Assembly: GCF_011045215.1 (NCBI RefSeq)
Contig: NZ_CP049201.1
DNA from: Escherichia coli
GTDB lineage: Bacteria > Pseudomonadota > Gammaproteobacteria > Enterobacterales > Enterobacteriaceae
Length of the DNA: 64,000 bases
Strand: one strand, 5' to 3'
In this document: positions 33,404 to 33,931 of the stretch, piece by piece
Position numbering within the stretch: the stretch's first letter is position 1
How the letters are laid out: each line of letters opens with the position of its first letter
Notes under the pieces: model-generated
The model's input: only the letters and a program-made list of their open reading frames with translations
The model's database searches: none
What the model was told of the DNA's origin: nothing
Translations under genes and position numbers: made by a program

Positions 33404-33592
33404 TTAGTGAACTGCCTCGCGGCTGTCCTTCCATGCCAGAACTTCGGATAAAGACCAGCCAACGGAACGACCACCGAGTTTACGCCGTGATGGGAATTGT
33501 CCGGCTTTTTCCAGGCGGTAGCGGCATGAACGGCTCAGGCCTGTAAGTTGCTGACATTCTTTTTCACGTATAAAGCGATCTGTGCTTAACAC
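33404..33592 (-). CDS. alpA: AlpA-family phage transcriptional regulator / excisionase-like
   Basis: 62-aa ORF MLSTDRFIREKECQQLTGLSRSCRYRLEKAGQFPSRRKLGGRSVGWSLSEVLAWKD; next to integrase. Confidence 0.6.
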   Translation of the reverse strand: MLSTDRFIREKECQQLTGLSRSCRYRLEKAGQFPSRRKLGGRSVGWSLSEVLAWKDSREAVH

Positions 33593-33871
33593 AATTCCCC
33601 CTTTGTTGTTTCTTAAAGAGTCATTGGGTGGATTATTGGGTTGGGTTAAGTCGGATTGTGTCAGGGTGTTTATGGAATGGCAAACACTGGTGGCGGTCGT
33701 TTTACAGAAGTGGGGTAATGAGAATAAAAAGTCTTTTAATTCATTGTGATGCAGTAGCGTAAAATTCTGTTTTTACGCCTTTTTTGCATGTTTTTAAGAG
33801 TGATCCGTCAATGTATAAAAGAACAGTAATATTATTAAAATCAAATAGTTATCAATTGTGTGTTTTTTAGT

Positions 33872-33931
33872 CCGTTATTCCTTGTTGTAGCTTATTGTTC
33901 CTTGTTGTAGCTTATTGTTTCACGTTGTGTA
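33872..33931. repeat. about three tandem copies of a 20-bp unit CTTATTGTTCCTTGTTGTAG between integrase and alpA
   Basis: Two exact copies at 33872..33911 plus a degenerate third; lies in the alpA upstream region. Confidence 0.6.

What the first reader, a model, noticed from the sequence alone, without database searches (positions are those of the whole stretch)
33404..33931. alpA upstream region carries a 20-bp tandem repeat abutting the integrase stop
Two exact and one degenerate copies of CTTATTGTTCCTTGTTGTAG lie between the int stop and the alpA promoter region. In Gram-negative satellites AlpA is the helper-triggered activator, so repeats here may be the site where a helper signal or the island regulator controls induction.
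Basis: inference. Interest (0 to 1): 0.4.

Follow-up and report, generated by a model that had tools for sequence, protein, structure and literature searches.

The report
Phased AlpA-type boxes upstream of alpA
The 20-bp repeat is the local form of a conserved row of six 10-bp boxes between int and alpA of an E. coli phage satellite; the same boxes flank both attachment-site arms, so this is most likely where the excisionase-like regulator AlpA binds to switch itself on.

Summary
The repeat is real: TRF finds 33878-33919, period 20, 2.1 copies, 100%. The 20-mer is not the conserved unit. It sits in a ~12.4-kb EcCICFT073-type PICI satellite inserted in comM, 25 bp past the int stop. In 50 distinct related int-alpA spacers the conserved feature is 5-6 boxes, G-r-A-A-C-A-A-y on the int/alpA strand, at exact 10-bp phase. 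The exact 20-mer form occurs in only 11 of 5,426 complete E. coli genomes; the module occurs in 818.

A matrix built from these boxes finds only three phased clusters in the 64-kb window: this array and the two att arms. In each arm the boxes lie next to a doubled 12-mer, GGTGTAGTTAAT, whose sequence follows the integrase type. EcCICFT073 and a tqsA-site island give the same three sites.

AlpA here is 98% identical to EcCICFT073 AlpA. Its model best matches solved excisionases. Published reporter fragments that AlpA and helper phages activate contain the whole array.

Best reading, inferred and with no binding data: a cooperative AlpA operator array, like those of Apl, Cox, TorI and RdfS, used for positive autoregulation, with weaker copies at att for excision. 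This is a new member of a known kind.

The parts
33872..33931 (-). Array of six 10-bp boxes (consensus G-r-A-A-C-A-A-y-n-n on the int/alpA strand). ACAAY cores start at 33928, 33918, 33908, 33898 and 33888; a degenerate ATAAC starts at 33878.
   Evidence: It is the top phased matrix hit in the window: 33.8 bits against a shuffle maximum of 18.2.
33878..33919 (.). Exact 20-bp tandem repeat (2.1 copies) inside the array. Two adjacent box pairs are identical. The spacer length matches relatives (369 vs 371 nt, six boxes), so this is homogenisation within the array, not an insertion.
   Evidence: TRF; alignment. This variant is in 11 of 5,426 E. coli genomes.
33956..35185 (-). Tyrosine integrase of 409 aa (the ORF could start at 35206). 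Domains: Arm-DNA-bind_3, Phage_int_M, Phage_integrase.
   Evidence: 86% identical to the EcCICFT073 integrase.
33404..33592 (-). alpA: a 62-aa Phage_AlpA winged helix-turn-helix protein with an excisionase fold.
   Evidence: Pfam PF05930, E 3e-18. PDB 8c3t, E 5e-7. Model pLDDT 87; best Foldseek hits are excisionases.
33655..33683 (-). Sigma-70-like site TTGCCA-17-CACAAT, with TG before the -10. It is the only promoter-like site conserved in all 50 related spacers. Its -10 hexamer is itself box-like.
   Evidence: In relatives it is a weak fourth matrix hit.
33828..33855 (-). Promoter-like site TTGATA-16-AATATT, 16 bp downstream of the array. Found in only 4 of 50 relatives.
35238..35277 (+). 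Int-proximal att arm: phased boxes (TTGTTCC on the int strand) in the opposite orientation to the array.
   Evidence: 29.4 bits for k=3. Sequence. Conserved in relatives.
35208..35231 (-). Doubled 12-mer GGTGTAGTTAAT x2, 22 bp upstream of the int ATG. Inferred integrase arm-type site.
   Evidence: TRF. The variant (TTAAT vs CACT) follows the Int type at both island ends while AlpA stays identical.
23068..23097 (+). Far att arm: phased boxes of the same kind.
   Evidence: 27.8 bits. Sequence.
23028..23051 (-). Far att arm: doubled 12-mer GGTGTAGTTAAT x2.
35360..35372 (-). att core copy ATCAATAGCGGAT at the junction with the comM 5' part.
   Evidence: Matches 22947-22959 at 12 of 13 bases.
22947..22959 (-). 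att core copy ATAAATAGCGGAT at the junction with the comM 3' part.

Best explanation
The repeat is a cooperative operator array for the island's own AlpA protein. AlpA is a small winged-helix protein of the excisionase (recombination directionality factor, RDF) type. Such proteins bind as monomers, head to tail, to weak direct-repeat boxes one helical turn apart. They bend the DNA and regulate both recombination and transcription.

Here six G-r-A-A-C-A-A-y boxes lie upstream of alpA, and two to four boxes lie in each att arm next to integrase arm-type sites. Once a helper phage gives a first burst of alpA transcription, AlpA would fill the six-box array and raise its own transcription. This positive autoregulation has been shown for EcCICFT073. 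AlpA would also occupy the arm boxes and direct Int-mediated excision.

Shown here: the array, its phase, its conservation, the shared motif at att, and the AlpA fold. Taken from the literature on a 98%-identical AlpA: AlpA activates a fragment that contains the array. Inferred: AlpA binds these boxes, and binding at the array is what activates transcription.
For: 1. Six boxes at exact 10-bp phase, far beyond chance.
2. All 50 distinct related spacers hold 5-6 in-phase boxes. 159 of 166 internal boxes keep ACAA, while the positions between cores vary freely: core 1.6-1.7 bits against 0.2-0.4.
3. The box matrix finds only three phased clusters in 64 kb: the array and both att arms. EcCICFT073 and a tqsA-site island give the same three places.
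4. In the arms the order is core, boxes, doubled 12-mer, int start. This matches KplE1, where mapped TorI sites (acaGTTCGtc atgGTTCGct tcaGATCGtt) precede the IntS arm sites and intS. It also matches RdfS, which binds next to the IntS P3 arm site.
5. The 12-mer variant follows the Int type at both island ends while AlpA is identical, so the 12-mer, not the boxes, is the Int arm site.
6. AlpA is Pfam Phage_AlpA. Its model best matches the GIsul2 excisionase (TM 0.81-0.88), then RdfS, Pukovnik Xis and BldC.
7. RDF operators are direct repeats about one turn apart, bound cooperatively, at att and at promoters (Apl PMC7498355; Cox PMC3936717).
8. AlpA activates PalpA-lacZ without Int, and the cloned fragments contain the whole array.
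9. A second family, whose AlpA has a different recognition helix (VCRTTRYEL vs LSRSCRYRL), carries 2-3 phased boxes of another sequence, AA[T/G][A/T]TCG, at the same place.
Against: - There are no binding data for AlpA on any DNA of this family.
- The only promoter-like site conserved in all relatives lies about 190 bp downstream of the array, which is far for a simple activator site.
- The family-B arm boxes (TTGTTCG) stay close to the family-A boxes although the AlpA helix differs, so covariation of box with AlpA is only partial.
- Published work found no effect of AlpA on Pint, although the arm boxes lie upstream of int. I did not map the Pint fragment.
- In PICMI satellites AlpA acted as an excisionase without changing transcription.
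Confidence: 0.6

Rival explanations
1. The array is the landing site of a helper-phage protein, for example the helper's own excisionase or another early protein. That protein would give the first, AlpA-independent induction of alpA, as P2 Cox does at the P4 PLL promoter upstream of vis. AlpA may then share or extend the same filament.
For: - Helper phages induce alpA independently of SOS, and the inducer was unidentified in 2018.
- In EcCIMP1 a delta-alpA mutant still shows helper-dependent induction of alpA-lux, and excisionases of different elements cross-talk.
- P2 Cox binds at least 6 cox-boxes upstream of P4 PLL and derepresses the satellite.
- My literature searches found no paper naming the inducer or its site.
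Against: - The boxes also sit in the island's own att arms, which argues for an island-encoded protein.
- Lambda Xis sites and TorI sites do not score with the box matrix.
- Lambda and phi80, which are both helpers, encode different excisionases (my own knowledge).
- Several other conserved blocks in the spacer could serve as the helper-responsive element.
Confidence: 0.13
2. The boxes are integrase arm-type sites. Int would bind downstream of its own gene, for example to block read-through from int into alpA or to hold the island quiescent. The doubled 12-mer would then be the site of another protein.
For: - Arm-type sites can also be adjacent direct repeats, for example lambda P'1-P'3 (my own knowledge).
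- The boxes occur in both arms, which is typical of Int arm sites rather than of RDF sites.
- The boxes are constant across Int types that share about 73-96% identity in the N-terminal domain.
Against: - The 12-mer, not the box, changes with the Int type at both ends of the island.
- The order of boxes and 12-mers matches mapped RDF and Int sites in KplE1 and ICEMlSym.
- The array-bearing fragment responds to AlpA when Int is absent.
Confidence: 0.1
3. The array is a structural or host-factor element, such as bent DNA or a site for H-NS, Fis or IHF. It would modulate silencing of this AT-rich spacer without a sequence-specific island protein.
For: - 10-bp phasing is also the signature of curved DNA.
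- The spacer is AT-rich.
- RDF-like proteins are reported to read DNA shape as much as sequence.
Against: - The conserved core ACAA is not an A-tract.
- The same specific core recurs only at the island's att arms.
- The cores are almost invariant while the spacing bases drift.
Confidence: 0.07
4. The repeat is a neutral product of replication slippage with no function.
For: The exact 20-bp duplication is confined to a rare lineage. Box number varies by whole units, for example one extra box in L067.
Against: The phased array is present in all 50 distinct relatives, with cores conserved far above the surrounding spacer.
Confidence: 0.03

Closest known systems
EcCICFT073 (E. coli CFT073 PICI) int-alpA regulatory module (Fillol-Salom et al. 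2018, PMC6092414)
   Same: - Same gene order and orientation.
- AlpA 98% identical, Int 86% identical, spacer about 89% identical.
- The same six-box array follows the int stop.
- In EcCICFT073, AlpA autoactivates and helper phages induce the fragment that holds the array.
   Different: - The window island sits in comM rather than next to roxA.
- It carries an AntA/B gene after alpA.
- Two box pairs are homogenised into an exact 20-bp repeat.
- No cis-element was defined in that paper.
Phage 186 Apl operators at pR-pL and attP (PMC7498355)
   Same: A small RDF with two jobs. Arrays of 5-7 direct-repeat operators with 10-11 bp spacing lie at a promoter region and at att. Binding is cooperative and bends the DNA.
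   Different: - Apl represses both promoters, whereas AlpA is reported to activate.
- Apl is an outlier in RDF sequence.
- The box sequence is unrelated.
P2 Cox boxes upstream of the satellite P4 PLL promoter (PMC3936717; Saha et al. 1989)
   Same: An array of at least 6 RDF boxes lies upstream of the satellite promoter that drives the AlpA homologue vis. RDF binding activates the satellite.
   Different: - There the RDF comes from the helper.
- The box is TTAAAG/CNCA.
- P4 and PICIs differ in gene content.
KplE1/CPS-53 TorI sites in attL (PMC2951348)
   Same: Three mapped RDF sites with a GTTCG core at 10-bp phase lie directly upstream of the IntS arm-type sites and intS. The PICI arms show the same order, and the cores are related: GTTC[C/G] against GTTCG. 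IntS shares the domain architecture.
   Different: - TorI is only 26% identical to AlpA over 42 aa.
- TorI represses intS.
- No separate array upstream of torI is described.
- TorI sites do not score with the PICI matrix.
RdfS of ICEMlSym R7A (PDB 8DGL; PMC11963761) and lambda Xis X1-X1.5-X2
   Same: A winged-helix RDF that forms head-to-tail filaments. RdfS binds attP next to an Int arm site and also binds its own promoter. It is the second-best structural match to the AlpA model.
   Different: - RdfS autoregulates negatively and has no clear consensus motif.
- Lambda Xis sites lie on one arm only.

Membership tests
RDF (excisionase-type winged-helix) operator array | Direct repeats spaced about one helical turn apart | tested here: met
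   Exact 10-bp spacing of 5-6 cores in the window and in all 50 distinct relatives.
RDF (excisionase-type winged-helix) operator array | The same recognition motif is present at the element's att site, next to integrase arm-type sites | tested here: met
   The phased matrix scan finds only the array and both att arms, in the window and in two other islands. The boxes abut the doubled 12-mer that follows the Int type.
RDF (excisionase-type winged-helix) operator array | A cognate small RDF-fold protein is encoded by the element | tested here: met
   AlpA matches PF05930. Model pLDDT is 87; the top PDB matches are the excisionases 8c3t, 8dgl and 4j2n.
RDF (excisionase-type winged-helix) operator array | Cooperative binding of the RDF to the boxes, with DNA bending | not testable with these tools
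   Needs EMSA, footprinting or ChIP.
RDF (excisionase-type winged-helix) operator array | Box sequence changes together with the RDF recognition helix | tested here: inconclusive
   The family-B AlpA helix differs, and the boxes between int and alpA differ (AA[T/G][A/T]TCG). The family-B arm boxes, however, stay TTGTTCG.
Gram-negative PICI of the EcCICFT073 type | int, alpA and pri in one orientation on a 10-15 kb island flanked by att repeats, without phage tail or lysis genes | tested here: met
   - Int, AlpA and a D5_N/DUF5906 primase are all on the minus strand.
- The island is about 12.4 kb between 12/13-identical cores in comM.
- The nearest relative is annotated with the same content.
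Gram-negative PICI of the EcCICFT073 type | Induction and packaging by a helper phage | not testable with these tools
   Shown for EcCICFT073 only.
Integrase arm-type sites | Motif present on both att arms and changing with the Int N-terminal domain | tested here: not met
   The boxes are on both arms but do not change between Int types. The 12-mer does change, at both ends.
Activator site of a sigma-70 promoter (class I/II distance) | Site centred within about 40-100 bp upstream of a transcription start | tested here: inconclusive
   - A promoter-like site directly downstream of the array exists in only 4 of 50 relatives.
- The universally conserved site is about 190 bp away.
- No start-site data are available.
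Replication-origin iterons | Repeats next to the replication gene, bound by the initiator | tested here: not met
   The array is 4 kb from the primase gene, and the motif is absent near it.
Known RNA family | Match to an Rfam model | tested here: not met
   No match with E-value up to 1 in 33300-34050.

The most novel reading that the evidence does not exclude
The six-box array is where the helper phage's own excisionase-type protein, or another early phage protein, nucleates a mixed filament with AlpA. The long-sought inducer of Gram-negative PICIs would then act as P2 Cox acts on P4. The array and the weaker arm boxes would form a threshold switch that orders autoactivation before excision.
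Probability: 0.12. Interest if true: 0.75.

Novelty: new member of a known kind. Interest (0 to 1): 0.42.

Why it matters
How Gram-negative PICIs sense their helper phage is unsolved. AlpA is known to be necessary and sufficient for induction and to activate itself, but I found no defined cis-element in the papers I could search. This analysis gives a concrete, conserved candidate operator: six G-r-A-A-C-A-A-y boxes. It ties that operator to boxes in both att arms. It also separates these boxes from the likely integrase arm sites, the doubled GGTGTAGTnnnT 12-mer.

That makes three questions directly testable in EcCICFT073, which carries the same array:
- Where does AlpA bind?
- Are autoactivation and excision coupled through one motif?
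- Does the helper signal use the same DNA?

The principle itself, an RDF with arrays at att and at a promoter, is well known from 186 Apl, P2 Cox and RdfS.

Tried and rejected
- Known RNA: an Rfam scan of the spacer at E-value up to 1 found nothing.
- Origin iterons or a second copy elsewhere in the island: the matrix scan found no further cluster.
- Cross-recognition by lambda Xis or TorI: their mapped sites do not score with the PICI box matrix. A visual likeness (GTTGTGT, TGTAG) is not supported.
- Distant AlpA relatives at 60-67% identity (L011-L013): one has an extra gene between int and alpA and no array. The GC-rich one shows nothing comparable. They did not help the covariation test.
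- Promoter assignment: consensus scans give two sites in the window, no more than shuffles give (mean 1.6). Only TTGCCA-17-(C/A)ACAAT is conserved in all relatives. I could not fix the transcription start.
- Literature searches for an AlpA binding site or the helper inducer of E. coli PICIs found none. The entry 8C3T could not be traced to a paper.
- The large ORF 30765-32558 on the minus strand looks like a chance ORF and was not pursued.

Full report
SETTING. The window is Escherichia coli-type chromosome: an rRNA operon, tRNA-Asp and tRNA-Trp, and ilvG. A mobile island of about 12.4 kb interrupts comM/yifB. The comM 5' part ends at 35352-35561 and the 3' part resumes at 21598-23001. The two junctions carry 12/13-identical cores, ATCAATAGCGGAT at 35372-35360 and ATAAATAGCGGAT at 22959-22947.

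On the minus strand the island encodes, in order:
- a tyrosine integrase (35185-33956; Arm-DNA-bind_3, Phage_int_M, Phage_integrase);
- a 62-aa Phage_AlpA protein (33592-33404);
- an AntA/B protein;
- a D5_N/DUF5906 primase.

This is the layout of Gram-negative phage-inducible chromosomal islands (PICIs). The experimentally studied EcCICFT073 carries an AlpA 98% identical, an integrase 86% identical and a spacer about 89% identical. The int-alpA module matches 818 of 5,426 complete E. coli genomes.

THE OBSERVATION. Tandem Repeats Finder reports 33878-33919, period 20, 2.1 copies, 100% identity. It also reports a period-10 reading of 33874-33919. The repeat ends 25 bp from the int stop (33956-33958), so it is near the stop rather than abutting it.

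Read on the int/alpA strand the region is ACAACgtgaa ACAATaagct ACAACaagga ACAATaagct ACAACaagga AtAACggact. That is six 10-bp units. Five in-phase ACAAY cores occur here. The maximum elsewhere in the window is two, and two in 50 whole-window shuffles. None of 20,000 shuffles of the spacer reached five.

WHAT IS CONSERVED. I aligned the spacer with nine E. coli relatives. I then added EcCICFT073 and 80 loci found through the integrase in IMG/VR.

All 50 distinct spacers of the close family (Int 82% identical or more) carry five or six in-phase units directly after a conserved TAATTTTTTTCGTGTTTTTTCAG. Of 166 internal units, 159 keep ACAA at the phased position. The unit consensus is G-r-A-A-C-A-A-y-n-n. 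The core carries 1.6-1.7 bits per position and the last three positions 0.2-0.4 bits. Array length changes by whole units; L067 has one extra.

The window's exact 20-mer is a homogenised pair of units. The spacer length matches relatives (369 vs 371 nt, six units). This variant occurs in only 11 of 5,426 genomes. The conserved object is therefore a phased box array, and the 20-bp repeat is its local, recent form.

A second family has Int 75-77% identical and an AlpA with a different recognition helix, VCRTTRYEL instead of LSRSCRYRL. At the same place it has a hairpin followed by two or three phased boxes of another sequence, AA[T/G][A/T]TCG.

THE SAME BOXES AT THE ATT ARMS. A log-odds matrix built from the family arrays was scanned over the whole window on both strands for three consecutive units at 10-bp steps. 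Only three places exceed the shuffle maximum of 18.2 bits:
- the array (33.8);
- 35248-35277 (29.4), upstream of int;
- 23068-23097 (27.8), at the far end of the island.

The arm boxes were not used to build the matrix. The scan gives the same three places in EcCICFT073 and in a tqsA-site island.

In both arms the boxes (cTTGTTCCag on the int strand, so inverted relative to the array) are followed by a doubled 12-mer, GGTGTAGTTAAT GGTGTAGTTAAT (35231-35208 and 23051-23028). Islands with a diverged integrase N-terminal domain (73-75% identity over the first 90 residues) carry GGTGTAGTCACT instead, at the int-proximal arm and also at the far arm 11 kb away. AlpA can be identical between the two types: L007 has the same AlpA as L008 and L009. 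The 12-mer therefore tracks the integrase and is the likely arm-type site. The boxes do not track it.

COMPARISON WITH MAPPED SYSTEMS. In the K-12 prophage KplE1, three experimentally mapped sites of the recombination directionality factor (RDF) TorI read acaGTTCGtc atgGTTCGct tcaGATCGtt. They are 10 bp apart and lie just upstream of the IntS arm-type sites and the intS start (PMC2951348; sequence). The order is the same as in the PICI arms, and the core is related: GTTC[C/G] against GTTCG. IntS shares the integrase domain architecture. TorI is a weak relative of AlpA, 26% identity over 42 aa.

RdfS binds attP directly upstream of an IntS arm site and also binds its own promoter (PMC11963761). 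Apl of phage 186 binds five direct repeats at attP and seven between pR and pL, all spaced 10-11 bp. The authors list direct repeats about one helical turn apart, weak single-site binding, high cooperativity and bending as general RDF properties (PMC7498355). P2 Cox binds at least six cox-boxes upstream of the satellite P4 PLL promoter and activates it (PMC3936717).

THE PROTEIN. AlpA matches Pfam Phage_AlpA (E 3e-18) and PDB 8c3t by sequence (E 5e-7). An AlphaFold model (pLDDT 87) best matches the GIsul2 excisionase 8c3t (TM 0.81-0.88, rmsd 0.9). The next matches include RdfS, Pukovnik Xis and BldC, all winged-helix proteins that line up head to tail on DNA. In PICMI satellites AlpA alone triggers excision and was likened to TorI and Xis (PMC10803314).

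LINK TO EXPERIMENT. In EcCICFT073, AlpA supplied from pBAD activates a PalpA-lacZ fusion. Helper phages lambda and phi80 induce alpA independently of SOS, and AlpA did not change Pint (PMC6092414). The forward primer of all these fusions, GTAACCACATTGCCAATAGCC, lies inside the int 3' end (window 33970-33990, one mismatch). The reverse primer of PalpA lies inside alpA. The AlpA-responsive, helper-responsive fragment therefore contains the whole array and no integrase gene. In EcCIMP1, helper induction of alpA-lux persists without alpA but is weaker (PMC11773190). The region thus receives two inputs.

MOST LIKELY MECHANISM (confidence 0.6). The array is an AlpA operator. AlpA monomers bind the six boxes cooperatively and stimulate alpA transcription, closing a positive feedback loop. 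The same protein fills the shorter box runs next to the Int arm sites and directs excision. The following are shown or inferred:
- Shown here: the array, its phase and conservation, the shared motif, and the fold.
- From the literature: autoactivation of the array-bearing fragment.
- Inferred: that AlpA binds the boxes, and how binding activates transcription.

The activation geometry is the weak point. The only sigma-70-like site conserved in all 50 relatives, TTGCCA-17-(C/A)ACAAT at 33683-33655, lies about 190 bp downstream of the array. The site right next to the array (33855-33828) occurs in only 4 of 50 relatives. The -10 hexamer of the conserved site is itself box-like and gives a weak fourth matrix hit in relatives. 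AlpA may therefore also act at the core promoter, or through bending or looping.

RIVALS.
- A helper-phage protein uses the array, following the P2 Cox/P4 precedent (0.13). This is not excluded. However, the motif's presence at the island's own att arms, and the failure of lambda Xis sites to score with the matrix, argue for the island's own protein.
- The boxes are Int arm sites (0.10). This is disfavoured by the 12-mer covariation and by the AlpA response in the absence of Int.
- A host-factor or curvature element (0.07).
- Neutral slippage (0.03). The conservation pattern contradicts this.

NOVELTY AND VERDICT. I found no description of AlpA boxes or of this array in the searchable literature. 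One study of helper-embedded PICIs reported a different doubled motif at comparable distances from the attP centre and left its binding protein open (PMC10111431). The principle is well known, so I rate this a new member of a known kind. It is of moderate interest because it offers a precise, testable operator for the unsolved induction step of Gram-negative PICIs.

Noticed in passing
window 35208-35231 and 23028-23051; L099 18484-18507 and 7304-7327; L015 11884-11907 and 23103-23126: A doubled 12-mer, GGTGTAGTTAAT x2, sits in both att arms, about 80 bp and about 147 bp from the core. Its last four bases change with the integrase type at both island ends. A published doubled attP motif in helper-embedded PICIs (TGTATTGC; 81 and 132 bp from the centre) was said to be absent from other PICIs. 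This looks like the equivalent element with a different sequence.
   Followed up: partly
window 33757-33778 (+ strand): A hairpin followed by a T-run forms an intrinsic-terminator shape, but for transcription antisense to the alpA leader. It folds at -13.8 kcal/mol (z -2.7). Across 50 relatives it is kept through G-C to A-T changes with G-T intermediates. It may end a small antisense transcript. There is no Rfam match.
   Followed up: partly
window 23594-23861: Six to seven copies of TTGACACTTT(T) (AAAGTGTCAA on the gene strand) are spaced about 46-82 bp apart, between a small ORF and the 175-aa HTH/terS-like gene near the far end of the island. They may be packaging (cos/pac) or protein-binding repeats.
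   Followed up: no
window 22947-35372: The island splits comM (yifB) after codon 58 of the annotated start, with a 13-bp core (12 of 13 identical). The island sequence supplies a new in-frame start to the comM 3' part (ORF 21598-23001). None of the relatives I examined sits at comM; they lie next to roxA, in tqsA, or between smrA and abgR.
   Followed up: partly
L004-L009 and many IMG/VR loci, about 20 nt after the int stop; absent from the window: A perfect 16-bp palindrome, CAGTATGCGCATACTG, lies between the int stop and the array in most relatives. The window, L001 and the CFT073 type have unrelated sequence there.
   Followed up: no
L089 1-300: This IMG/VR contig starts with the far-arm doubled 12-mer and runs through the core into the int-proximal arm. 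It appears to be an excised or circular attP form of a family-B island. Extra phased GTGTTCG boxes lie between the core and the int-proximal module.
   Followed up: no
window 33655-33660 and L015 13445-13474: The -10 hexamer of the conserved alpA promoter candidate (CACAAT) is itself a good box. In EcCICFT073 a second box follows 10 bp later (GACACAATCC GACACAACCC). AlpA may therefore also touch the core promoter.
   Followed up: partly
window 30765-32558 (- strand): A 597-aa ORF with odd composition overlaps several short ORFs on both strands. In relatives this zone is annotated with YlcI/YnfO and Icd-like genes. It is probably a chance ORF across the variable 'Bro/immunity' zone.
   Followed up: no
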